Source: Escherichia coli (GTDB lineage Bacteria > Pseudomonadota > Gammaproteobacteria > Enterobacterales > Enterobacteriaceae). From it: DNA of 64,000 nucleotides. Position numbers and translations under genes: made by a program. The notes under the pieces are model-generated. The model searched no databases. It saw only the letters and a program-made list of their open reading frames with translations, and was not told the origin of the DNA. Shown here piece after piece: positions 1,542-38,176 of the stretch (position 1 is its first letter; every line of letters starts with the position of its first letter). The DNA lies in NCBI RefSeq assembly GCF_024502345.1, contig NZ_JALDNN010000001.1; one strand, written 5' to 3'.

Positions 1542-1904
1542 AATGTCCGTGCCTGTTTATCAGATTATAGGTAAAGGATGCCACAGACAGGATAAAAACA
1601 TGAGTTTTTCACCGCTTTTCGTGAAAATCTTTTGTAGATCTTCTGGATCGCTCGCAAATCGTCATGTGGATAACTTTGTGCATAAATTATTTACATCGCT
1701 TTTAATTTATTATCATGCTTTTTGCAGTATGATGTTTGTCTTTGTTTTTCATGTAGTTAAAAATAAAGCCATCCCTAATAATTGAGATAATGGGATTTTT
1801 TCTAATGTGGATAGATATGAATTATTTTTCTCCTTAAGGATCATCCGTTATTTGGGTCGTTTTCTGCTAAAATCTGCGCCTTGCGCTTCTTTAGCGCACT
1901 GTCT

Positions 1905-2837
1905 ATGGCTAACCTTTTGAATAAATTCATTATGACGAGAATACTCGCTGCGATAACCCTTTTGCTGAGTATCGTATTGACCATTTTGGTCACTATTTTT
2001 TGCTCCGTTCCGATCATCATTGCCGGGATTGTAAAACTATTGCTACCTGTGCCAGTCATTTGGCGAAAGGTTTCGCGTTTTTGTGATTTTATGATGTATT
2101 GCTGGTGTGAAGGTCTGGCGGTATTACTGCATCTGAACCCACACCTGCAATGGGAAGTTCACGGGCTGGAAGGGTTAAGTAAGAAGAACTGGTATCTGCT
2201 TATTTGTAACCACCGTAGTTGGGCAGATATTGTCGTACTGTGCGTGCTGTTTCGTAAGCACATTCCGATGAATAAATATTTCCTCAAGCAGCAGCTGGCC
2301 TGGGTGCCTTTTCTTGGCCTGGCGTGCTGGGCGCTGGATATGCCGTTTATGAAGCGTTATTCCCGCGCTTATTTATTACGTCATCCGGAGCGACGTGGTA
2401 AAGATGTTGAAACCACTCGGCGTTCTTGTGAAAAGTTTCGCCTGCATCCCACCACCATTGTCAATTTCGTTGAAGGCTCCCGTTTCACGCAAGAAAAACA
2501 TCAGCAAACCCACTCCACTTTTCAAAACTTGTTGCCACCAAAGGCGGCAGGCATTGCGATGGCGCTAAATGTACTGGGTAAACAATTCGATAAACTGCTT
2601 AATGTTACGTTGTGTTATCCGGACAATAACCGTCAGCCGTTCTTCGATATGTTAAGCGGTAAACTGACGCGGATTGTCGTACATGTGGATTTACAACCTA
2701 TTGCCGATGAGTTACATGGCGACTACATCAATGACAAAAGCTTTAAGCGCCATTTTCAGCAATGGCTGAACTCACTGTGGCAGGAAAAAGACCGGCTTCT
2801 GACGTCGTTGATGTCATCACAGCGGCAGGACAAGTAA
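1905..2837 (+). CDS. yihG: putative acyltransferase YihG (PlsC family)
   Basis: ORF 1881..2837; the start is probably the internal MANLLNKF at 1905. Membrane N-terminus; position divergent from polA. Confidence 0.8.
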
Positions 2838-2877
2838 ATTTTGCTCGCCTCTGAATGAGCAGAGGCGAGTGAGTATT

Positions 2878-4308
2878 TTAATGAACAAAACGTCCGGCAC
2901 GAGACATAAATTCTTCTTCGCTCATCTCCTGTCCGTTAAAAACAACTTTACCCGGTGTATAACGCAGTTGCAGCGAGGCGGTATTGTTGTCAATCGTGAT
3001 TAACTGAAACATCTGACCTAATGTCATCATCCCGCTGATTTGTTTATCCGCCTGCTTTTGCGCTTTTTCCGCATCCATTCCTTCAGATAAATTAAGCTGT
3101 TTTGCGGTTTCTGTGACGACATTAAGCGGTAACTTCACATCAAAATTGAGCGATTTGATATCTTTGTTTGTGGATGATGAAGATTTGGCTGGGTCGGCAA
3201 TACTGATATCCAGATTGGCATTTAGTTCGCCGAGTGCGTTCTTCCATCTTACCGGTTGTTTAATGGTCGGCTCACTTTTTTGTAATAACGGTAAATACTC
3301 TTTGAACAATGCAGCATTCACTTCTTGCAGAGCAACTTCATCGTTTGCTAACTCAGGGTGTGCAGCAAGCTGCTTCTGCATCGCAATGTTATACTGGATG
3401 ATAAATTGGCGCACTGCTGAGGGATCAATAGATTCAGCAATCAATGACCACTCACCACTACCGAGTTGCTGATTCCCTTTTGTTAACTTATCAAGTTCGT
3501 AGGTCAGATTGACATTGATATAATCTTTGTCTTTAACGCGATCCAGCCTGGTTTTTGCAACGAAAGCATCGATTTGGGCAACGTCTTCCCCGTGATTGAT
3601 AATGTTAATCTGATTAAATTTCGACTCGCTTTCACCAACCGGAAATTTCTTTTCTTCTAATCGCGCCAGAGAATCAATGGTAAAACTTTTTGCCGTTACT
3701 TTGTTCATTGGTGATAATTGCAGAACAATATCTTCGACTTTGCCTTCAATATCCAGGTTAGACAATGAACTACCATCACCATTAAAAGTAAACTGGCCCT
3801 CACCAAAAGAAAACTTTCCATACTCTGCAGGGGCAACATCTAATGTCGTAGAGAATGAGCCACCAAACGCGAATCGCAATGTCGCTTCCACGGGCGATTT
3901 ATTTTTCACGGCGATAAATAGCGGTTGTGTCAGTTCATTATTCACTAAGTTCACTTTTGCCGCTGCCAGTGCTGGGATGACATTACCATGCATTAACATT
4001 GTGATGGGCAACGGACCGTGCTCAACATCCACATCAAATACAACTTTCTGGCCTGGCTTGATATTGAGATCGGGTGCACCGTTATCGAATGTCATTTGCA
4101 TTTGAAAACGAGAATTAAAAAAACCTTTGTCAAAATTTTTATAACTTAACGTCATATCGTAGGCATGTTCACCTTTCTTTTTAGCATCGTTAAAATCTTT
4201 AATAAACTTTTCGACACCAGGCTGAATTTGCGTACCTGTGTACCATGTGCCACCACCCCAGATTACGGCTAACGCAACAATAACACCTGTAGCTGACTTA
4301 CGTATCAT
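2878..4308 (-). CDS. yihF: DUF945-family protein YihF
   Basis: 476-aa ORF with N-terminal signal/TM; position between yihG and dsbA. Confidence 0.8.
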   Translation of the reverse strand: MIRKSATGVIVALAVIWGGGTWYTGTQIQPGVEKFIKDFNDAKKKGEHAYDMTLSYKNFDKGFFNSRFQMQMTFDNGAPDLNIKPGQKVVFDVDVEHGPLPITMLMHGNVIPALAAAKVNLVNNELTQPLFIAVKNKSPVEATLRFAFGGSFSTTLDVAPAEYGKFSFGEGQFTFNGDGSSLSNLDIEGKVEDIVLQLSPMNKVTAKSFTIDSLARLEEKKFPVGESESKFNQINIINHGEDVAQIDAFVAKTRLDRVKDKDYINVNLTYELDKLTKGNQQLGSGEWSLIAESIDPSAVRQFIIQYNIAMQKQLAAHPELANDEVALQEVNAALFKEYLPLLQKSEPTIKQPVRWKNALGELNANLDISIADPAKSSSSTNKDIKSLNFDVKLPLNVVTETAKQLNLSEGMDAEKAQKQADKQISGMMTLGQMFQLITIDNNTASLQLRYTPGKVVFNGQEMSEEEFMSRAGRFVH

Positions 4309-4414
4309 ATAAATATTCCCTGATAAAACAGCAAAACTTTAAATATCCGCTTATGCTGAAATAATGTCCAGCGGCAGGACGCATTATCAGAATGTATTTA
4401 TATTTATTAAATAA

Positions 4415-4443
4415 TAAAAAAAACCCGTGAATATTCACGGGCC
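4415..4443 (-). terminator. rho-independent terminator downstream of dsbA
   Basis: Hairpin cccgtgaatattcacggg followed by a U-run on the minus-strand transcript, just past the dsbA stop. Confidence 0.6.
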
Positions 4444-4462
4444 TTATGTAATTTACATTGAA

Positions 4463-5089
4463 TTATTTTTTCTCGGACAGATATTTCACTGTATCAGCAT
4501 ACTGCTTAACAAAAACATCCATATTGCTGGTATCCATACCCTGCGGATTCAGCTGATATTTACCGTTAACAAACATCGCCGGAACGCCACGCAATTGCAC
4601 GTCAGCTGCAGCTTTTTCCTGCTGAGCGACCAGAGATTTGACCACGAAGCTGTTCCACGCCGCGTCGTACTCTTCACCTTTAATACCTGCGTTGATAAAT
4701 ACATCGCGGATATCAGATGCTGAACGAATGGTCTGGGTTTTCTGTACGCCTTCAAACAGCGGAACAGTGACTTTGTCTTCCACGCCCAGCGCCATCGCCA
4801 CAGCCCATGCCTGAGTCAGATCTTTGCCCAGGTCACCACCCATGAAGTCGACGTGGTATTTAGTCATCTTCACGCCTTCCGGCAGTTTTTTCTTCACATT
4901 ATCAGAAATATGCAGAACTTCTTCAAACTGATAGCAGTGCGGACAGAAGAAAGAGAAAAACTCCAGCACTTGCGGCGCGCCAGCTACCGGTTTTTCCAGG
5001 GTAGTGTACTGTTTACCATCTTCATACTGCGCCGCCGATGCGCTAAACGCTAAAACTAAACCAGCCAGCGCCAGCCAAATCTTTTTCAT
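4463..5089 (-). CDS. dsbA: periplasmic thiol:disulfide oxidoreductase DsbA
   Basis: 208 aa, signal peptide, CPHC active-site motif ([12 protein letters not shown]). Confidence 0.95.
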
Positions 5090-5105
5090 GATCTACTCTC
5101 TCCGA

Positions 5106-6092
5106 TTAATACATAGGTGTTAATTGTAAAGGGGGTTCTTGTAGAACTTTTGCCTGTTCTATAAAAGTCGCCGTTTGTCGCAGCCAGTAATCTTCCCCGG
5201 TTAACCACGGGAAATTTTTCGGGAACGCGGGATCAGCCCAACGCCGCATTAGCCAGGCAAGATAATAAACCAAACGCATGGCGCGTAAAGGTTCAATCAG
5301 TCCGATTTCAGCGGTGTCGAACTCGCTAAATTCTTCATAAGCTTCAATAATAGTTTCCAGTTGCATCCGCTGCTCGGCTTTATCGCCATTGAGCAACATC
5401 CACAAATCCTGAATAGCTGGACCATTACGTGCATCATCCAGATCAACAAACATTGGACCATCGCGCCAGAGAATATTCCCGGCGTGGCAGTCTCCATGTA
5501 GCCGCAGAACGGTGAAATCTTCCCGCCAGTGTGCTGTAACGGCGGCGATCAGCTCATCTGTCGCTTTCAGGAATGCCGCTTTCAACCCGGAAGGTATCAG
5601 TGTAGCGTCCTCAAACAGCTTGCGTGGCTCAATGAGATATTCATTCAGACCGATGGTCGGGCGATGGATAAAAAGCTGTTTGTGCCCCGTCTGGTGCATA
5701 CGCCCTAAATAACGCCCAACCGCTTCCGTCTGATCGATATTATCAGCTTCGAACTGGCGACCACCGACGCTTGGAAAAACAGCGAAATAAAATCCCTGAT
5801 GATTCAATAAAGTCTGACCGTTAAAGGCCACAGGTGCTGCGACCGGAACTTCATCATTTACCAGCTGCAACGCAAATTGATGTTCTTCGAGGATTTGATC
5901 GGCTGTCCAACGTTCAGGGCGATAAAATTTGACGACAAAACGTCGACGCTCTTCGTCCTGAAATTGATAGACACGGTTTTCATAGCTGTTAAGCGGGGTA
6001 AGACCGGAATCCACCCGGATCCCTTGCTCAAACAGAGCGTCCATGATGGTATCCGGGTGTAGTGTCTGGAAAGTAAAAGCGCTGTTGTTCAT
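5106..6092 (-). CDS. srkA: stress-response Ser/Thr kinase SrkA (YihE/RdoA)
   Basis: 328-aa ORF; kinase-like HGDCHAGNILW motif; immediately upstream of dsbA. Confidence 0.9.
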   Translation of the reverse strand: MNNSAFTFQTLHPDTIMDALFEQGIRVDSGLTPLNSYENRVYQFQDEERRRFVVKFYRPERWTADQILEEHQFALQLVNDEVPVAAPVAFNGQTLLNHQGFYFAVFPSVGGRQFEADNIDQTEAVGRYLGRMHQTGHKQLFIHRPTIGLNEYLIEPRKLFEDATLIPSGLKAAFLKATDELIAAVTAHWREDFTVLRLHGDCHAGNILWRDGPMFVDLDDARNGPAIQDLWMLLNGDKAEQRMQLETIIEAYEEFSEFDTAEIGLIEPLRAMRLVYYLAWLMRRWADPAFPKNFPWLTGEDYWLRQTATFIEQAKVLQEPPLQLTPMY

Positions 6093-6168
6093 CCCATCAT
6101 CCGGAAAACATTACGAATGATGAAGGATATCATTTCACGATGATTTTGGTGGCGCCGCTTACAAGCTT

Positions 6169-6438
6169 TTACTCTTTAATTACGCCGCGAGCGCGTAACA
6201 GCGCCGTTTTGAAGTCTTCTTCATAATCTTTCTGCAAACCCGGGATCACCGCATCTTTCGCGGAATCACGCATTTTCAGGTGATAGATCAGAATGTCATC
6301 CGTCAAATCCGCCAGTTCGCCGTCAAAACCTGACTCTTTCGCCAGTTTCTGCAAAAATTGCAACAGGTTAAGGTCTGGCTCTTTTTGCCAGGCTGGCTGG
6401 AGGAGTTCAATAACTTCATTCAGACGTTTACATTTCAT
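6169..6438 (-). CDS. yihD: DUF1040 protein YihD
   Basis: ORF 6169..6468; the likely start is MKCKRLNEV at 6438 (89 aa). Confidence 0.8.
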
Positions 6439-6507
6439 AGTGATGCTCCTTACTCTTGAGACAGACACGTTAGCAGGGTCAATCCCACAATAAAAGAGGC
6501 GATATCG

Positions 6508-7092
6508 GTGAATCTGATGACGACGATAACAGGCGTTGTGCTGGCAGGCGGTAAAGCCAGACGAATGGGCGGCGTAGATAAAGGATTGCTGGAATTAAAT
6601 GGCAAACCGCTGTGGCAACATGTCGCTGACGCGCTTATGGCGCAGCTCTCTCACGTCGTGGTTAATGCTAATCGTCATCAGGAAATCTATCAGGCAAGCG
6701 GTCTGAAAGTGATTGAAGATTCACTGGCGGATTACCCAGGCCCTCTGGCAGGAATGCTTTCAGTAATGCAGCAGGAAGCAGGCGAGTGGTTTTTGTTTTG
6801 TCCGTGCGATACTCCTTATATTCCCGAGGATTTAGCAGCCCGGCTTAATCATCAGCGCAAAGATGCGCCTGTCGTGTGGGTCCATGACGGTGAACGCGAT
6901 CACCCGACTATTGCTCTGGTAAACCGCGCTATTGAGCCTTTATTACTGGAATATCTGCAAGCAGGAGAACGCCGGGTAATGGCATTTATGCGTCTGGCTG
7001 GCGGTCATGCGGTTGATTTCAGCGATCATAAAGATGCATTTGTTAACGTGAATACGCCAGAGGAGCTTGCCCGATGGCAGGAAAAACGATGA
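6508..7092 (+). CDS. mobA: molybdenum cofactor guanylyltransferase MobA
   Basis: 194 aa with [11 protein letters not shown] nucleotide-binding motif. Confidence 0.9.
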
Positions 7093-32788: not shown

Positions 32789-33181
32789 TTTCCTCTTAGT
32801 CTATATTTGAGATGGTGAGTGAACGAGTGCGTTTTGCTGCCATCTCTGTCCCCCAAAAAATAATCAGTATGAATTGATTGGAGATTACGACTCCGCTATT
32901 TGACCTTAAAAAAGTCGGCAAGTCATAGTCATAAATGAGTCTCTTCAATGGAAGACACCTTAGAGATTTACCATCAACTCCCATTCACAAACAAACATTA
33001 ATTATTATCAACACATTCACATTAATTATAAATCATCTCAGACCTTCCTGATAAAAAGATATTAAAGTGAAACATTTTGTTTTTCACATTTTAGTTCATC
33101 ACTTTTAGGCGTAAATAAAGGTAAAAAAAACAACAATACTATTTCTCTTTCACAAAAGAATTAACAAAAGGTTTTTCAAGG

Positions 33182-33657
33182 ATGAGTGATATTATTTACC
33201 TGACCATAACCGGAGAACAACAAGGATGTATTTCCTCTCGTTGTGGAACGAGCGCATCAATAGGTAATCGCTGGCAGATTGGCCATGATGATGAAATCTT
33301 CGCGTTCTCGCTCTCTAATAGTATTACGAATACAGGCAAAGGGTCATAATTGCATGGCCTTAGTTTCTGTAAATTGATTGACAAAAGCTCCCCGTTACTT
33401 ATTAACGCTATTAACAATAACGAGCAGTTGTTCATGGAGTTTGACTTCTATCGGATCAATAGGTTTGGTCGATGGGAGAAATATTACAACATTCAACTCC
33501 GCGGCGCGCTCTTATCAGCAATCAATCACCTGTTTACTGAGAACAATCTGGATACAGAAGCCATCACTGTCAGTTATGAATATATACTCTCCAGGCATCT
33601 GATTGCTAATACTGAATTTAGTTATTTGGCATTTCCCGATAACTACAACCGTCTGTT
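33182..33657 (+). pseudogene. Hcp-family (T6SS tube protein) domain, N-terminal part of a disrupted Hcp-fused toxin gene
   Basis: ATG at 33182 gives MSDIIYLTITGEQQG...; the frame hits TAA at 33347-33349 and resumes in the same frame with the Hcp-like stretch FCKLIDKSSPLL. The reading frame then runs into the IS903 end at 33658. Confidence 0.7.
33649..33657. repeat. IS903 target-site duplication, left copy (CCGTCTGTT)
   Basis: The identical 9-mer recurs at 34715-34723, immediately outside the two inverted repeats. Confidence 0.9.
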
Positions 33658-34714
33658 GGCTTTGTTGAATAAATCGAACTTTTGCTGAGTTGAAGGATCA
33701 GATCACGTATCTTCCCGACAACGCAGACCGTTCCGTGGCAAAGCAAAAGTTCAAAATCACCAACTGGCCCACCTACAATAAAGCCCTCATCAACCGTGGC
33801 TCCATAACTTTCTGGCTGGATGATGAAGCTATTCAGGCCTGGTATGAGTCAGCAACACCTTCTTCACGAGGCAGACCTCAGCGCTATTCTGACCTTGCCA
33901 TCACGACTGTGCTGGTCATTAAACGCGTATTCAGGCTGACCCTGCGCGCTGCGCAGGGCTTTATTGATTCCATTTTTTCTCTGATGAACGTTCCGCTACG
34001 CTGCCCGGATTACAGCTGTGTCAGCAGGCGGGCAAAGTCGGTTAATGTCAGTTTCAAAACGCCCACCCGGGGTGAAATCGCACACCTGGTAATTGATTCC
34101 ACCGGGCTGAAGGTCTTCGGTGAAGGCGAGTGGAAAGTCAAAAAGCATGGCCAGGAACGCCGCCGTATCTGGCGTAAGCTGCATCTCGCCGTTGACAGTA
34201 AAACACATGAAATCATCTGCGCTGACCTGTCGCTGAACAACGTTACGGACTCAGAGGCCTTCCCCGGGTTAATCCGGCAAACCCACCGGAAAATCAGGTC
34301 AGCCGCCGCCGATGGCGCTTACGATACCCGGCTATGTCACGATGAACTGCGGCGTAAGAAAATCAGCGCGCTTATCCCTCCCCGAAAAGGTGCGGGTTAC
34401 TGGCCCGGTGAATATGCAGACCGTAACCGTGCAGTGGCTAATCAGCGAATGACCGGGAGTAATGCGCGGTGGAAATGGACAACAGATTACAACCGTCGCT
34501 CGATAGCGGAAACGGCGATGTACCGGGTAAAACAGCTGTTCGGGGGTTCACTGACACTGCGTGACTACGATGGTCAGGTTGCAGAGGCTATGGCCCTGGT
34601 ACGAGCGCTGAACAAAATGACGAAAGCAGGTATGCCTGAAAGCGTGCGTATTGCCTGAAAACACAACCCGCTACGGGGGAGACTTACCCGAAATCTGATT
34701 TATTCAACAAAGCC
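33658..34714 (+). mobile_element. IS903-type insertion sequence (IS5 family), 1057 bp
   Basis: Terminal 18-bp inverted repeats GGCTTTGTTGAATAAATC (33658-33675, and reverse complement at 34697-34714); internal 322-aa ORF; flanked by a 9-bp direct repeat. Confidence 0.9.
33690..34658 (+). CDS. IS903-type DDE transposase
   Basis: 322-aa ORF matching my recollection of the IS903/IS102 transposase. Confidence 0.85.
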   Translation: MKDQITYLPDNADRSVAKQKFKITNWPTYNKALINRGSITFWLDDEAIQAWYESATPSSRGRPQRYSDLAITTVLVIKRVFRLTLRAAQGFIDSIFSLMNVPLRCPDYSCVSRRAKSVNVSFKTPTRGEIAHLVIDSTGLKVFGEGEWKVKKHGQERRRIWRKLHLAVDSKTHEIICADLSLNNVTDSEAFPGLIRQTHRKIRSAAADGAYDTRLCHDELRRKKISALIPPRKGAGYWPGEYADRNRAVANQRMTGSNARWKWTTDYNRRSIAETAMYRVKQLFGGSLTLRDYDGQVAEAMALVRALNKMTKAGMPESVRIA

Positions 34715-34723
34715 CCGTCTGTT
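34715..34723. repeat. IS903 target-site duplication, right copy (CCGTCTGTT)
   Basis: Exact 9-bp match to 33649-33657. Confidence 0.9.
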
Positions 34724-34753
34724 TATACCACGGCCAAAAACTAAAGCTGGTAA

Positions 34754-35395
34754 TGGTTCAAAACACTTAATAGTAAAGCGGTTGGCAGACTGCTTGCTGC
34801 TGGCGGCATATACAATGGGAATATCGAAGGATTCAGGGAAACAGCAGACAAGTTGGGGGGAGATGCACCTGCTGGTTACGATCAATTTATGGATAACAAA
34901 GGGTTACTCATCGCTGGTGCTTCAATAGTTGCTGGAGCAGTTCTGGGGAGAATGAGACTCCCTGATTTGGAATCACTTGAGCATTTCGGAGCCAGAGGAG
35001 CAGTATCAGGAAGACCATTTAATCCCGACCTTGCCGGTGGTCCAATAGAAAATCTGACGACAGATGGCGTAACAATCAACAGGGAAGGTATCGCTATTGT
35101 TGAAAAACACATAGCCAGATTTGGTCATGACCCTGTAAATGAAGTGATGATCAATAGACTGAAAGACATTGAGAAAGGAAAAATCCCCCCAGAACAAGTA
35201 GATCTTAACTTCTATACTCATGAGTGTCGGGAATATCAGCGTTACTGTAATCTTGGTTGGGAAACAGGACAACCTGATGGTGACGCAGGCTATGCACTCT
35301 GGAATCATACGCATACTGCTACTCTAGAAGATTATAAACTTAAGGGAGAACTTAATGACTTATACCACCAGGATGCACTTGACTATGATAACTGA
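34754..35395 (+). pseudogene. toxin-like C-terminal domain of the disrupted Hcp-fused gene (family not identified)
   Basis: Open frame of 213 codons after a stop at 34751; no ATG near its 5' end (the ORF track uses TTG at 34853). It begins with a Gly/Ala-rich linker (GRLLAAGGIYNGNIEGF...DKLGGDAPAGYDQF). It is in a different frame from the pre-insertion Hcp frame. Confidence 0.5.
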
Positions 35396-35630
35396 AACTG
35401 AAATTAACGTACTGAAAGTTATGGCTGAGAAAGATATAAACTGGAACTGGATGAATCTCGATCGCACACTATCCATAAGGCAAATTCCAGGATTCGGTAA
35501 TGTTGTTAACATTGTTAACAAATTAGCTAACGAGGGTTTGGTTATTATTGAGGATAGCGGACATAAGTCTATGCCTCACTACCACGTTACTGAAAAGGGA
35601 TACAATTTCGTGAAAAGTGAGAATAAATAA
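35355..35630 (+). CDS. putative cognate immunity protein (small cytoplasmic protein)
   Basis: 91-aa ORF with AAGGGAGAA Shine-Dalgarno 6 bp upstream of the ATG at 35355; overlaps the 3' end of the toxin-like ORF (alternative ATG at 35385 overlaps its TGA). Confidence 0.5.
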   Translation: MTYTTRMHLTMITETEINVLKVMAEKDINWNWMNLDRTLSIRQIPGFGNVVNIVNKLANEGLVIIEDSGHKSMPHYHVTEKGYNFVKSENK

Positions 35631-35777
35631 CGTAGCGTTGATTACTGAACAAATCGCTCAGGATTATATTTTGCGTAAAAATGATTCGGTTATTTCTGTA
35701 TCTGAACGGGCGCAGATAGCAAAATGGCTTCCGGTGATGGAAGCCATCAGATTATTGGCAAAGTGCGCGTTGTTCAT

Positions 35778-35818
35778 GCCGGATGCGGCGTGAACGCCTT
35801 GTCCGGCCAACAAAACTC
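35778..35818. repeat. REP element
   Basis: gccggatgcggcgtgaacgccttgtccggcc. Confidence 0.7.
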
Positions 35819-35914
35819 AAAAATTCAATAAATTGCATAAATTATGTAGGCCTGGTATCAGGCAGTTTTGCCTCTTTCATCGTACTGCAATTTACAGTGA
35901 CTCGTTAATATTCA

Positions 35915-38176
35915 TCATCCCCGACGCAAATTCTGCGCCGCCTGCACCATGTTCGCCAGTGCCGCGCGGGTTTCTGGCCAGCCGCGCGTTTTCAGGCCAC
36001 AGTCCGGGTTGACCCACAGGCGCTCTGCCGGAATGCGTTTTGCCGCTTTCTTCAGCAAGGCTTCAATCCATTCCACGCTCGGTACGTTTGGCGAGTGAAT
36101 GTCATAGACGCCTGGACCGATTTCATTCGGATAATCAAACTCTTCAAACGACTCCAGCAACTCCATGTCGGAACGCGAGGTTTCGATGGTGATGACGTCT
36201 GCATCCAGTGCCGCAATCGAATCCATGATGTCGTTGAACTCGCAATAACACATGTGAGTGTGGATTTGTGTGTCATCTTTCGCCACGGCGGCGTTGATAC
36301 GGAAGGCCTCCACGCCCCACTGGAGATATGCATCCCAGTCGCTACGACGCAGCGGTAAACCTTCGCGCAGCGCCGGTTCATCAATCTGGATGATGCCAAT
36401 TCCTGCGGCTTCCAGGTCCGCCACTTCATCACGCAGCGCCAGCGCAATTTGTTTGGCGATGGTTTCACGGCTGACATCTTCACGCGGGAACGACCAGCAG
36501 AGAATGGTCACCGGGCCAGTCAGCATCCCTTTCACCGGTTTATCAGTCAGAGATTGCGCATACTTCGCCCACTCCACGGTAATCGGTGCCGGGCGGCTAA
36601 TGTCACCAATGACAATCGGTGGCTTCACGCAGCGGGAACCGTAGCTCTGTACCCAACCGTTTTGCGTAAAGACAAATCCGTCGAGGTGCTCGCCAAAGTA
36701 TTCCACCATGTCATTACGCTCGGCCTCGCCATGTACCAGCACATCCAGTCCCAAACGTTCCTGTTCAACAATGGCCTGCTTGATATGTTCCGCAATGCCC
36801 GTGCGGTAGTTGTTGGCGTCGAGATTACCCTTTTTGAAATCCAGACGCAGGGTACGAATTTCCGTGGTTTGCGGGAAGGAACCAATCGTGGTGGTCGGCC
36901 ACGCTGGCAGTTTAAAACGCGCACGCTGGGCTTCGGCACGCACTTCATAGACATTCGCACGCTGGCTGTCCTGGGCGGTGATCGCCGCCAGACGCTTTTC
37001 TACTGCCGGGTTATGTACACGAGTAGAGTGACGACGCGCCTGAATTGGAGCGCTCCACTCTGCCAGAGCTGCCGTATCACCACTGTTCAGCGCATCTCGC
37101 AGCAGTGCCAGTTCATGACATTTTTGCAGGGCGAAGGCAAACCAGCTTTTCACTTCTGCATCAAGACGCGTTTCCACGCTCAGGTCGATGGGGCTGTGCA
37201 GCAACGAGCAGGAAGATGCCACCCACAAATCACGTTTGCCGACAATGTCCTTAATTTGCGCATATTTCTCAGTAAGATCGGCGCGCCAGACGTTACGACC
37301 ATTGATCAGACCCGCAGACAGCAGCCAGTCAGAAGGCAGGCGCTTGTGCAGTTCAACAACGTCATCTTTACCATGTACAAGGTCCACATGCAGCCCCTGA
37401 ACAGGCAGCGCAGTAATCGTGTCGAGATTTGGCGTTACGCCTTCAAAATAGGTGGTCAGCAGCAGTTTCACCTGTCCCTGGAGCGCGTCGTAAGCGGGTT
37501 TGTATGCGTCCAGCCACGCCTGTGGTAGTTCCAGTACCAGCGCGGGTTCATCAATCTGTACCCACTCGATGCCGCGTTTCGCCAGTTCTGCCAGCACTTG
37601 CTGATAAACCGGCAGAATGTCGTTCAGCAGGCTAAGGCGGTCAAACTGTTCACCTTTCACTTTCCCCAGCCACAGGTAAGTAACCGGCCCCAGCAGCACA
37701 GGCTTAACGTTGTGGCCCAGCGCCAGCGCCTCGTCCACTTCCTCCAGCAGCTGCGTCCAGGTCAGTTTGAACTGTTGGCCTTTAACGAACTCCGGCACCA
37801 TGTAGTGATAGTTGGTGTTAAACCATTTGGTCATTTCCGCTGCCGCCGCAGGTTCGCCAGTCGGCGCACGTCCACGACCAATACGGAACAGGGTGTCGAT
37901 ATCTACCGAACCGTCTTTGTTCTGATGACGTGGCGGAACATTACCCAGCAGCAAACTGGTGGTCAGTACATGATCGTACCAGGCAAAATCGCCCACCGGC
38001 AGCAGGTCGATACCCGCTTGCTTTTGTTGATCCCAGTGACGAGCACGCAGTTCACGCCCTACTGTCAGCAGTTCTTCACGCGTGGAGTTCCCCGCCCAAT
38101 AACTTTCTTGCGCTTTTTTCAGCTCGCGACGCAGGCCAACGCGAGGGAAACCGAGGGTGTGATTCAATATTGTCAT
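35915..38176 (-). CDS. metE: cobalamin-independent methionine synthase
   Basis: 753 aa, begins [30 protein letters not shown]. Confidence 0.95.

What the first reader, a model, noticed from the sequence alone, without database searches (positions are those of the whole stretch)
35355..35630. Candidate immunity gene, translationally coupled to the toxin domain
The 91-aa ORF has an AAGGGAGAA Shine-Dalgarno ~6 bp before its ATG and overlaps the last 40 bp of the toxin frame. A second in-frame ATG at 35385 overlaps the toxin stop as ATGATAACTGA. It has no signal peptide. This fits the usual tight effector-immunity arrangement.
Basis: inference. Interest (0 to 1): 0.6.

Follow-up and report, generated by a model that had tools for sequence, protein, structure and literature searches.

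The report
Orphaned immunity gene beside dead toxin
This small E. coli gene very probably makes a protein that shields the cell from one particular toxin that neighbouring bacteria inject; the cell's own copy of that toxin gene has been wrecked, and the shield is an ordinary kind of gene from a family nobody has yet tested.

Summary
The ORF is real and conserved, and the immunity reading is well supported by comparative evidence. No experiment has tested it.

- **Start codon.** The conserved start is the second ATG (35385, 81 aa), not 35355. All homologues begin MIT(E)TE there.
- **Upstream gene.** It is the C-terminal toxin domain of an Hcp-fused type VI effector lying between ysgA and metE. 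In this window it is a pseudogene, with an internal stop, frameshifts and a 1057-bp IS5-family insertion. The immunity gene is therefore effectively an orphan here.
- **Intact version.** An intact 382-aa Hcp-toxin plus this immunity gene exists in another E. coli.
- **Linkage.** In 15 cases a homologue directly follows the same toxin domain with a 4–11 nt overlap. The toxin is carried on Hcp, PAAR, DUF8093 and other N-terminal domains.
- **Orphan copies.** There are 12 orphan copies, 8 of them in immunity arrays behind other toxins.
- **Co-variation.** Toxin and immunity divergence co-vary (Mantel r = 0.85).
- **Fold.** The protein is a minimal winged helix, which explains NCBI's name "MarR family regulator". 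It fails the MarR membership tests.
- **Toxin.** The toxin is all-α and acidic, with no match among solved structures. It also ends colicin-like bacteriocins, whose ~90-aa immunity proteins look remotely homologous.

This is a new member of a known kind, of moderate interest.

The parts
35385..35630 (+). Immunity gene, conserved 81-aa reading frame (MITETEINVLKV...SENK, stop TAA). Predicted winged-helix protein.
   Evidence: Homologue alignment starts here. NCBI annotation of the identical locus gives WP_000627421.1. The immunity HMM matches 35385-35624. The AF2 model has pLDDT 93.9.
35355..35384 (+). Ten in-frame codons upstream (MTYTTRMHLT) with alternative ATGs at 35355 and 35373. This is the toxin's 3' end read in another frame and is not part of the conserved protein.
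   Evidence: A similar upstream peptide (TRMHLTM) persists before an orphan copy in Citrobacter (L022), as expected for a retained toxin 3' remnant.
35342..35350 (+). AAGGGAGAA Shine-Dalgarno-like motif. Its GGAG core ends 6 nt before ATG 35355. It lies inside toxin codons K-G-E.
   Evidence: Read directly from the sequence. A weaker AGGA at 35370-35373 lies 11 nt before ATG 35385.
34889..35395 (+). C-terminal toxin domain of the Hcp-fused effector. It is all-alpha with conserved His/Glu motifs (KHxxRF, FYTHExRExxRY, WNxxHTATLED) and ends with stop TGA at 35393-35395. Here it is cut off from its N-terminal part.
   Evidence: Toxin HMM hit. Alignment A3. AF2 model pLDDT 93.1. No Pfam, NCBIfam or PDB sequence match.
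34757..34954 (+). Conserved pre-toxin linker (LKTLNSKAVGRLLAAGGIYNGN...GGDAPAGY...hydrophobic stretch), out of frame with the Hcp part.
   Evidence: BLASTP to the Citrobacter Hcp-ET linker, 82% identity. The frameshifted translation is shown.
33658..34714 (+). IS5-family insertion sequence of 1057 bp, with its transposase ORF at 33690-34658. It is flanked by a 9-bp target duplication (33649-33657 and 34715-34723) and splits the Hcp-toxin gene.
   Evidence: Alignment to the uninterrupted locus L001. NCBIfam IS5-family transposase, E = 6e-107.
33182..33657 (+). N-terminal Hcp (TssD) tube-protein domain of the effector. It is broken by an internal stop after ...GKGS (33347-33349).
   Evidence: BLASTP to the Citrobacter Hcp-ET N-domain. 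NCBI annotates tssD as a pseudogene, 'frameshifted; internal stop', in the identical locus. The intact E. coli version matches TIGR03344.
35617..35793 (+). 58-aa GTG ORF overlapping the immunity stop. NCBI annotates it as hypothetical, but it is probably not a gene. It is listed only because it abuts the immunity gene.
   Evidence: Its 3' end reads through the REP-like repeat that matches thousands of E. coli sites (query 887-941). No family match.

Best explanation
The gene at 35385-35630 encodes an 81-aa cytoplasmic immunity protein. It is specific for the C-terminal toxin domain of an Hcp-fused type VI secretion effector (an 'Hcp-ET').

In an intact locus, the toxin and immunity genes are co-transcribed. 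The immunity start overlaps the toxin stop (ATGATAACTGA here, ATGA in other alleles), so the two proteins are made together. The immunity protein then binds the toxin domain and keeps it inactive in the producer and in sister cells that are hit by it.

The protein is a minimal winged-helix domain used as a protein-binding module rather than a DNA-binding one.

In this window the effector gene has been destroyed by an internal stop, frameshifts and an IS5-family insertion, while the immunity gene is intact. It is therefore now an orphan immunity gene. If it is still expressed, its only use is to protect against neighbours that carry the intact toxin, which does exist in E. coli.

Shown: gene linkage, conservation, co-variation and fold. 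Inferred: binding, protection, occlusion of the active site, and expression.
For: **Linkage**
- The toxin HMM and the immunity HMM hit adjacent positions on the same strand, overlapping by 4-11 nt, in 15 cases. These span E. coli, Citrobacter, Atlantibacter, Enterobacter, Pantoea, Lonsdalea, Mangrovibacter (where only a truncated toxin remnant is left) and metagenomic contigs.
- The same toxin domain sits on Hcp, on DUF8093, on a PAAR protein preceded by a DcrB-family gene, and on at least two other N-terminal domains.
- Even at 37% immunity identity and 58% toxin identity, the pair stays together.

**Orphan arrays**
- There are 12 orphan copies. Eight sit behind other toxin/immunity genes, such as Imm35, an HNH-type Hcp-ET or a colicin-D-like toxin.
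- E. coli B2 strains carry a variant toxin, its own 85-aa variant immunity gene, and then an orphan copy of the window's allele.

**Co-variation**
- Mantel r = 0.85, p = 2e-4 over 11 pairs. The correlation is strongest for the toxin's C-terminal half (r = 0.87).
- Immunity diverges faster than toxin, for example 41% against 73% identity. Two tandem pairs in one genome differ by 49% against 71%.

**Selection and intactness**
- The gene is present in 848 of 5426 complete E. coli genomes.
- In every locus inspected in detail (L001, L011, L012) it is an intact CDS while tssD is a pseudogene. All 30 sampled rows also show a CDS.
- Residues 15-68 show 4 synonymous and 0 nonsynonymous changes between alleles.

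**Intact cognate toxin in the species**
- E. coli SCPM-O-B-8794 has a 382-aa Hcp-ET with a nearly identical C-terminal toxin domain, followed by the immunity gene.

**Compartment**
- There is no signal peptide.
- Bacteriocin relatives of the toxin carry the Pyocin_S inner-membrane translocation domain, which is linked to cytoplasm-acting toxins (PMC9040868).

**Bacteriocin relatives**
- These are each followed by an 87-90-aa protein that aligns to this family by profile-profile comparison (probability 84%, E = 7.6e-6). The two families share DR and TEK motifs.
Against: - There is no experimental evidence of binding or protection for this protein or any close homologue.
- I could not run a complex prediction.
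- The fold's nearest solved structures are all DNA-binding regulators, and NCBI names homologues 'MarR family transcriptional regulator'.
- In this window the upstream gene is broken by an IS, and no convincing promoter was found upstream on the + strand. Expression of this copy is therefore unknown.
- The Mantel test does not remove shared ancestry.
- The most distant profile hits (E about 1e-6) were not next to this toxin. The immunity assignment should be limited to the closer subfamily.
Confidence: 0.85

Rival explanations
1. It is a small MarR/PadR-like winged-helix transcription factor, as NCBI names it. On this view it regulates the Hcp-toxin locus or neighbouring genes by binding DNA and does not neutralise the toxin.
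For: - The AF2 model superposes on RosR, MarR, MepR and PadR regulators with TM about 0.7-0.8.
- There are weak Pfam hits to winged-helix families and a weak NCBIfam Lrs14 hit.
- 8 of 75 distant family members hit PadR at E <= 1e-3.
Against: - No Pfam or NCBIfam regulator family is matched at significance. The best are E = 0.12 and E = 0.023, the latter scoring 14.7 bits against a 90-bit cutoff.
- At 81 aa the protein lacks the N- and C-terminal dimerisation helices of ~140-aa MarR proteins (targets are 110-150 aa).
- The would-be recognition helix (VVNIVNKLAN) carries one basic residue, and the protein has net charge -1.2.
- A locus regulator would not explain its strict position after the toxin domain whatever the N-terminal carrier, its co-variation with the toxin, or its presence in orphan immunity arrays.
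Confidence: 0.06
2. It has a dual role. It acts as an immunity protein and, alone or in complex with the toxin, also binds DNA to autoregulate the operon, as many antitoxins of toxin-antitoxin systems do.
For: The winged-helix fold combined with the toxin linkage. This is compatible with all the comparative data.
Against: - The helix-3 and wing surface is poor in basic residues.
- No repeated operator-like sequence was looked for or found.
- Autoregulation by immunity proteins is not a described feature of T6SS or bacteriocin systems (my knowledge).
- Orphan copies lie behind unrelated genes with no common upstream region.
Confidence: 0.08
3. In this particular genome the gene is a silent relic. 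It was stranded when the effector gene decayed, it is no longer transcribed or useful, and it simply has not yet been mutated.
For: - The upstream gene carries a stop, frameshifts and an IS.
- No good sigma-70 match lies upstream on the + strand.
Against: - The same toxin-dead, immunity-intact state recurs in different E. coli lineages and in two alleles.
- Only synonymous change is seen in the core, which argues for continued selection.
- Intact attackers exist in the species.
Confidence: 0.2
4. It is an accessory or chaperone protein needed to load or stabilise the Hcp-fused effector, rather than to neutralise it.
For: Small genes next to T6SS effectors are sometimes adaptors. The PAAR version has a DcrB-family gene upstream.
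Against: - The adaptor-like gene (DcrB) lies upstream and is a different protein.
- This family follows the toxin domain, not the carrier domain, across Hcp, PAAR, DUF8093 and (remotely) diffusible bacteriocins that need no T6SS loading.
- Orphan copies without any effector are common.
Confidence: 0.03

Closest known systems
Hcp-ET effectors and their ETI immunity proteins (Ma et al. 2017, as summarised in PMC6730261)
   Same: An Hcp tube protein carries a C-terminal toxin extension and is encoded outside the main T6SS cluster. It is followed directly by a small immunity gene, sometimes in several copies.
   Different: The described classes carry HNH-DNase, DUF2235 lipase, Pyocin S3 or colicin-DNase domains. 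This toxin domain matches no Pfam family and no solved fold. The immunity protein is a winged helix with no match to the Colicin_Pyocin immunity family. I could not read the original paper, so I cannot exclude that the locus is listed there.
Orphan immunity genes and displaced toxin-tip/immunity modules of polymorphic toxin systems (CDI, Rhs, T6SS, pyocins)
   Same: Intact immunity genes persist without a functional cognate toxin. Arrays of unrelated immunity genes lie downstream of a live toxin. Remnants of the old toxin 3' end remain in front of the orphan. PMC7322526 notes that pyocin immunity genes can be orphans.
   Different: Nothing differs in principle. Here the orphaning happened by in-place decay (stop, frameshifts, IS) in one lineage and by module displacement in the B2 lineage.
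Colicin-like bacteriocins of the carocin D / carocin S3 / pyocin G / pyocin SX2 cytotoxic-domain group and their ~10-kDa immunity proteins
   Same: Bacteriocins from Serratia, Klebsiella, Pseudomonas chlororaphis and Pectobacterium end in a domain about 45-50% identical to this toxin. The domain lies just after a Pyocin_S translocation domain, and each is followed, with ATGA overlap in several cases, by an 87-90-aa protein. The literature describes a 90-aa CaroS3I with ATGA overlap and a 10-kDa ImG, and a cytotoxic fold unlike known ones (PMC7461348, PMC7322526, PMC10422930).
   Different: I could not obtain the PyoG, SX2 or carocin sequences, so identity of the toxin family is a lead and not a result. 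The bacteriocin-type immunity proteins are only remotely similar to this one (BLASTP E = 0.079; hhalign probability 84%).
MarR / PadR / RosR winged-helix transcription factors
   Same: The same core fold, H1-β-H2-H3-β-β plus a C-terminal helix, with TM about 0.7-0.8.
   Different: The protein is much shorter and has no dimerisation module. It has no significant sequence-family match, its recognition helix is not basic, and its genomic behaviour is that of an immunity gene.

Membership tests
Toxin-immunity pair of a polymorphic toxin (T6SS Hcp-ET type) | The gene lies immediately downstream of the toxin-encoding 3' end, on the same strand, tightly spaced or overlapping. | tested here: met
   Overlap is 11 nt here. 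It is 4-11 nt in all 15 toxin-linked copies.
Toxin-immunity pair of a polymorphic toxin (T6SS Hcp-ET type) | The gene travels with the toxin domain, not with the delivery domain. | tested here: met
   The same toxin-plus-homologue pair is found on Hcp, DUF8093, PAAR and two further N-terminal domains.
Toxin-immunity pair of a polymorphic toxin (T6SS Hcp-ET type) | Immunity sequence co-varies with toxin sequence and diverges faster. | tested here: met
   Mantel r = 0.85, p = 2e-4. Immunity identity is 25-91% against toxin identity of 57-94%. Shared ancestry is not controlled for.
Toxin-immunity pair of a polymorphic toxin (T6SS Hcp-ET type) | Orphan copies occur in immunity arrays. | tested here: met
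   12 orphan copies, 8 of them behind other toxin/immunity genes.
Toxin-immunity pair of a polymorphic toxin (T6SS Hcp-ET type) | The protein binds the toxin and protects cells from it. | not testable with these tools
   This needs co-expression rescue, pull-down or competition assays.
Toxin-immunity pair of a polymorphic toxin (T6SS Hcp-ET type) | The immunity protein is located in the compartment where the toxin acts. | tested here: inconclusive
   There is no signal peptide or transmembrane segment. Bacteriocin relatives carry the Pyocin_S inner-membrane translocation domain, implying a cytoplasmic target (PMC9040868). The toxin's actual target is unknown.
MarR family transcriptional regulator (NCBI's name for homologues) | Significant match to the MarR / MarR_2 profile. 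| tested here: not met
   There is no MarR hit for this protein. Only 2 of 75 family members reach E <= 0.1, and none reaches E <= 1e-3. NCBIfam gives only Lrs14 at 14.7 bits against a 90-bit cutoff.
MarR family transcriptional regulator (NCBI's name for homologues) | A protein of about 140-150 aa with N- and C-terminal helices forming the dimer interface around the winged helix. | tested here: not met
   The protein is 81 aa and consists of the winged helix plus one C-terminal helix only. Structural matches cover only 40-60% of the targets (TMt 0.36-0.61).
MarR family transcriptional regulator (NCBI's name for homologues) | Winged helix-turn-helix fold. | tested here: met
   Foldseek probability is 1.00 with TMq up to 0.82 to RosR, MepR, MarR and PadR structures.
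MarR family transcriptional regulator (NCBI's name for homologues) | Sequence-specific DNA binding. | not testable with these tools
   Only indirect evidence is available: net charge -1.2, and helix 3 (VVNIVNKLAN) has one Lys.
Colicin/pyocin DNase immunity proteins (Pfam Colicin_Pyocin, PF01320) | Match to PF01320 and a four-helix fold. | tested here: not met
   There is no Pfam hit. The model contains a β-hairpin wing. A genuine PF01320 gene is seen next to an HNH bacteriocin in L033 and is a different protein.
Described Hcp-ET classes ET1-ET4 (HNH, DUF2235, Pyocin S3, colicin DNase) | The C-terminal extension matches one of those toxin families. | tested here: not met
   The toxin fragment has no Pfam match even at E <= 10, no NCBIfam match and no PDB sequence or fold match. 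The N-terminal Hcp domain is met in intact relatives.
Carocin D / pyocin G-type cytotoxic domain with its immunity protein | Sequence homology to PyoG (ETV05907.1), carocin D (ADH95192.1) and ImG / CaroDI. | not testable with these tools
   The sequences were not retrievable. Only circumstantial agreement exists: a ~90-aa immunity protein, ATGA overlap, position after Pyocin_S, a fold unlike known ones, and Pectobacterium homologues.

The most novel reading that the evidence does not exclude
The ORF may belong to an unrecognised superfamily of winged-helix immunity proteins that are currently mis-annotated as MarR regulators or left as 'hypothetical'. This superfamily would guard against a single widespread, structurally novel, acidic all-α toxin domain.

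That toxin domain is delivered by T6SS carriers (Hcp, PAAR, Rhs), by DUF8093 proteins and by colicin-like bacteriocins. It may be the carocin D / pyocin G / SX2 domain, whose activity is disputed in the literature (DNase versus inhibition of protein synthesis).

If so, a DNA-binding fold has been recruited as a toxin-binding module. E. coli lineages including Nissle and UTI89-like B2 strains would then carry ready-made resistance alleles to that toxin class.
Probability: 0.45. Interest if true: 0.55.

Novelty: new member of a known kind. Interest (0 to 1): 0.4.

Why it matters
- **Annotation.** It corrects a database label: 'MarR family transcriptional regulator' or 'hypothetical protein' should read probable toxin immunity protein. 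It also fixes the start codon.
- **Strain compatibility.** About 16% of complete E. coli genomes keep this immunity gene. In every locus I inspected in detail their own toxin gene was dead. That bears on which strains can resist which T6SS attackers. Nissle carries the orphan allele, and a UTI89 protein carries the variant toxin domain.
- **A tractable system.** It supplies a matched toxin/immunity pair for a toxin domain with no known fold or activity. The same domain also ends colicin-like bacteriocins that are being considered as protein antibiotics. Pre-existing orphan immunity genes would limit their strain coverage.

Tried and rejected
**Sequence and fold searches that gave nothing significant**
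- Pfam, NCBIfam and PDB sequence searches of both proteins.
- Foldseek of the toxin model against the PDB. The best hit was E = 1.3, TM 0.2, to Doc.
- Foldseek against AFDB50 returned only sequence relatives with uninformative names, so the toxin's activity stays unknown.

**Literature**
- The original Hcp-ET paper and the carocin D paper are not held.
- Searching papers and one supplement for toxin motifs gave nothing.
- The experimentally tested Citrobacter koseri Hcp effector T6EC4 (PMC11148199) is described there as Tox-REase-5-like. I read it as probably the neighbouring, different toxin type seen in L002, but I did not compare sequences.

**Other attempts**
- The 'DTMTV' TonB-box anchor from the carocin S3 paper is present in Pectobacterium bacteriocins with this toxin domain. 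It is also present in one with an HNH domain, so it is not diagnostic.
The narrower one gave 14 loci.
- The promoter scan found nothing convincing upstream.
- Distant profile hits (P0165, P0142) are not beside this toxin, so I do not extend the immunity call to the whole 111-cluster set.

**Readings considered and rejected**
- Spurious ORF: rejected because of conservation.
- Colicin_Pyocin-type immunity protein: rejected because of the fold.
- T6SS adaptor: rejected because of gene position and the bacteriocin relatives.
Full report
**1. The observation**

The window is E. coli/Shigella-type chromosome. The region lies between ysgA and metE.

The 91-aa ORF 35355-35630 exists. So do the AAGGGAGAA motif at 35342-35350, the overlap with the upstream frame (which ends TGA 35393-35395), and the second in-frame ATG at 35385 within ATGATAACTGA. 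There is also a third in-frame ATG at 35373.

The ORF is not a chance frame:
- 40 close homologues were found.
- A profile search of 1.84 billion representatives gave 111 clusters at E <= 1e-3.
- The gene is present on the chromosome of 848 of 5426 complete E. coli genomes and is annotated as a CDS in all 30 sampled rows.

**2. The true start**

In an alignment of 31 sequences, the complete homologues from Citrobacter, Atlantibacter, Mangrovibacter and others begin MIT(E/N)TE(L/I)NVLKV. That corresponds to ATG 35385. NCBI's annotation of the identical locus also gives 81 aa.

The ten codons upstream are the toxin's last codons (..LNDLYHQDALDYDN) read in another frame. A similar peptide (TRMHLTM) persists in front of an orphan copy in Citrobacter youngae as a retained toxin remnant.

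The strong GGAG before 35355 falls in toxin codons K-G-E. It is shared by the intact E. coli allele, so a longer isoform in E. coli cannot be excluded. The structured domain starts at residue 3-4 of the 81-aa form.

**3. The upstream gene**

It is what remains of an Hcp-fused effector, and its parts are as follows.
- The N-terminal Hcp domain (33182-33657) carries an internal stop.
- The linker is out of frame.
- A 1057-bp IS5-family element with a 9-bp target duplication sits at 33658-34714.

These points rest. No complete E. coli genome in the collection has this insertion.

Intact versions exist:
- A 382-aa protein in Citrobacter, with Hcp (Pfam T6SS_HCP), the linker and this toxin domain.
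- A 382-aa protein in E. coli SCPM-O-B-8794, with a nearly identical toxin domain. It is followed by an immunity gene that differs at 2 residues.

**4. Does the ORF behave like an immunity gene?**

I built HMMs of the toxin domain (A3) and the ORF family (A4) and scanned all fetched loci in six frames.
- Every Hcp-ET-type toxin domain is followed by a family member on the same strand. The overlap is 4 nt (ATGA), 7 nt or 11 nt.
- The toxin-plus-ORF module sits on different carriers:
  - Hcp.
  - DUF8093, present as two tandem pairs in Atlantibacter.
  - A 386-aa PAAR protein preceded by a DcrB-family gene, with toxin 58% and ORF 37% identical.
  - Two more unrelated N-terminal regions.
- Twelve further copies lack the toxin. 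Eight of these lie in arrays behind other toxins and immunity genes:
  - Beside Imm35 and other Hcp-ET types in Citrobacter.
  - Behind a colicin-D-like toxin and its immunity gene in Kosakonia.
  - Behind the variant pair in E. coli B2 strains, including the type strain.
- Over 11 pairs, toxin and ORF identity matrices correlate (Mantel r = 0.85, p = 2e-4). The ORF diverges faster than the toxin.
- Between the window allele and the B2 orphan allele, residues 15-68 show 4 synonymous and no nonsynonymous differences. Changes cluster at the ends.

This is the standard signature of a cognate immunity gene and of orphan immunity genes.

**5. What the protein is**

AlphaFold2 on a 75-sequence alignment gives a confident model (pLDDT 93.9). 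Its order of elements is helix, short strand, helix, helix, β-hairpin, helix.

Foldseek finds RosR, MepR, MarR, ZitR and PadR regulators at TM about 0.7-0.8. This explains the NCBI name 'MarR family transcriptional regulator'. The protein nevertheless fails the MarR tests:
- It matches no regulator family significantly.
- It is 81 aa and has no dimerisation module.
- It has net charge -1.2.
- The helix that would read DNA (VVNIVNKLAN) has a single lysine.

I therefore read it as a winged helix used for protein binding. Nearly invariant residues in the close family include W20, W22, L25-D26-R27, G36-F37, N39-V40, Y66 and G72.

**6. The toxin**

The domain of about 140 aa has conserved KHxxRF, FYTHExRExxRY and WNxxHTATLED motifs. 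Its model is confident (pLDDT 93.1) and all-α, and the domain is acidic with pI 4.9. It has no Pfam, NCBIfam or PDB sequence match and no solved-structure match.

AFDB50 and sequence searches find the domain at the C-terminus of several protein types:
- Hcp, DUF8093, PAAR and RHS proteins.
- Many colicin-like bacteriocins of Serratia, Salmonella, Klebsiella, Pseudomonas, Morganella and Pectobacterium. There it sits right after the Pyocin_S domain.

That Pyocin_S domain is reported to be the inner-membrane translocation domain of cytoplasm-acting nuclease bacteriocins (PMC9040868). This fits an immunity protein without a signal peptide.

Each bacteriocin copy is followed by an 87-90-aa protein. 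BLASTP similarity of these proteins to the window's protein is marginal (E = 0.079). Profile-profile comparison gives 84% probability (E = 7.6e-6) over 66 columns, with shared DR and TEK motifs. They are probably remote homologues.

The literature on pyocin G, pyocin SX2 and carocins D/S3 describes a similar set of features (PMC7322526, PMC10422930, PMC7461348):
- A cytotoxic domain unlike known folds.
- An immunity protein of ~10 kDa (90 aa).
- An ATGA overlap between the two genes.
- Conflicting activities, DNase versus inhibition of protein synthesis.

This fits, but I could not obtain those sequences. The link is a lead only.

**7. Mechanism and status in this genome**

The most likely mechanism has three steps.
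- In intact loci the two genes are co-translated through the overlapping stop and start.
- The winged-helix protein binds the toxin domain, probably over its His/Glu site.
- Binding keeps the toxin inert.

All of this is inferred.

Here the effector is dead, so the gene can only serve as defence against neighbours with the live toxin. Whether it is transcribed behind the IS is unknown.

**8. Verdict**

It is an ordinary kind of thing, an effector-immunity pair and an orphan immunity gene. The family is untested and mis-annotated, the fold is uncommon for immunity proteins, and the toxin has unknown fold and activity. Interest is moderate.

Noticed in passing
window 33658-34714 (target duplication at 33649-33657 and 34715-34723): A 1057-bp IS5-family element with a 9-bp target duplication is inserted in the Hcp-toxin pseudogene. 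None of the 5426 complete E. coli genomes covers the junctions (0 records cover at least 80% of 33000-36000). The insertion looks strain- or lineage-specific, and several near-identical proteins in the databases come from Shigella.
   Followed up: partly
window 35617-35793: NCBI annotates a 58-aa GTG ORF here as a hypothetical protein (WP_001222305.1). It overlaps the immunity stop and its 3' end translates the REP-like repeat that matches thousands of E. coli sites. It has no family match and is probably not a gene.
   Followed up: partly
window 34757-34954; L005, L008, L025-L032, L026: A conserved ~65-aa pre-toxin module (LNSKAVGRLLAAGGIYNGNIEGF..LGGDAPAGYEQVMDNKG plus a hydrophobic stretch) joins at least four unrelated N-terminal domains (Hcp, DUF8093 and two unnamed) to at least four different toxin tips. 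These are this one, an HNH type, a REase-like type and a colicin-D-like type. Its role is unknown; it may act as a recombination joint or in membrane translocation.
   Followed up: partly
L011 (E. coli ATCC 11775) 1888-3595; rows: B2-type E. coli carry a variant Hcp toxin, its own 85-aa immunity gene, and then an orphan copy of the window's allele. In the type strain the variant toxin has one internal stop. The 93.9%-identity orphan allele is also present in Nissle (EcN) and NC101, which were not inspected further. 730 of the 848 positive genomes have this 90-95% allele.
   Followed up: partly
rank 32 (AFDB A0AAP9IFZ4, Pectobacterium parvum, 507 aa): A protein annotated as carrying a 2Fe-2S ferredoxin domain ends in this toxin domain. 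This is reminiscent of the ferredoxin-containing pectocins, which use ferredoxin uptake to enter cells.
   Followed up: no
toxin domain, window 34979-35392: The toxin domain is strongly acidic (pI 4.9, charge -10.6) and its immunity protein is near neutral. This is the reverse of the usual pairing of a basic nuclease with an acidic immunity protein, and it casts doubt on the database names 'colicin' and 'HNH endonuclease'.
   Followed up: partly
L034 (Pectobacterium jejuense) 3947-6536; L033 3502-6590: Pectobacterium bacteriocin genes begin ...APNDGDTMTV (the TonB-box motif described for carocins). One, frameshifted, ends in this toxin domain and is followed by an 89-aa immunity gene. Another ends in an HNH DNase, with orphan fragments of this toxin and its immunity gene downstream.
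   Followed up: partly
L035, L036 (distant family members P0165, P0142): The most distant profile hits share the W.WYQLDRALS motif but are not next to this toxin. One follows a DUF6881 protein. The other follows, after a 575-nt gap, a protein with an unrelated C-terminus. Where the immunity family ends and PadR-like proteins begin is unclear.
   Followed up: partly
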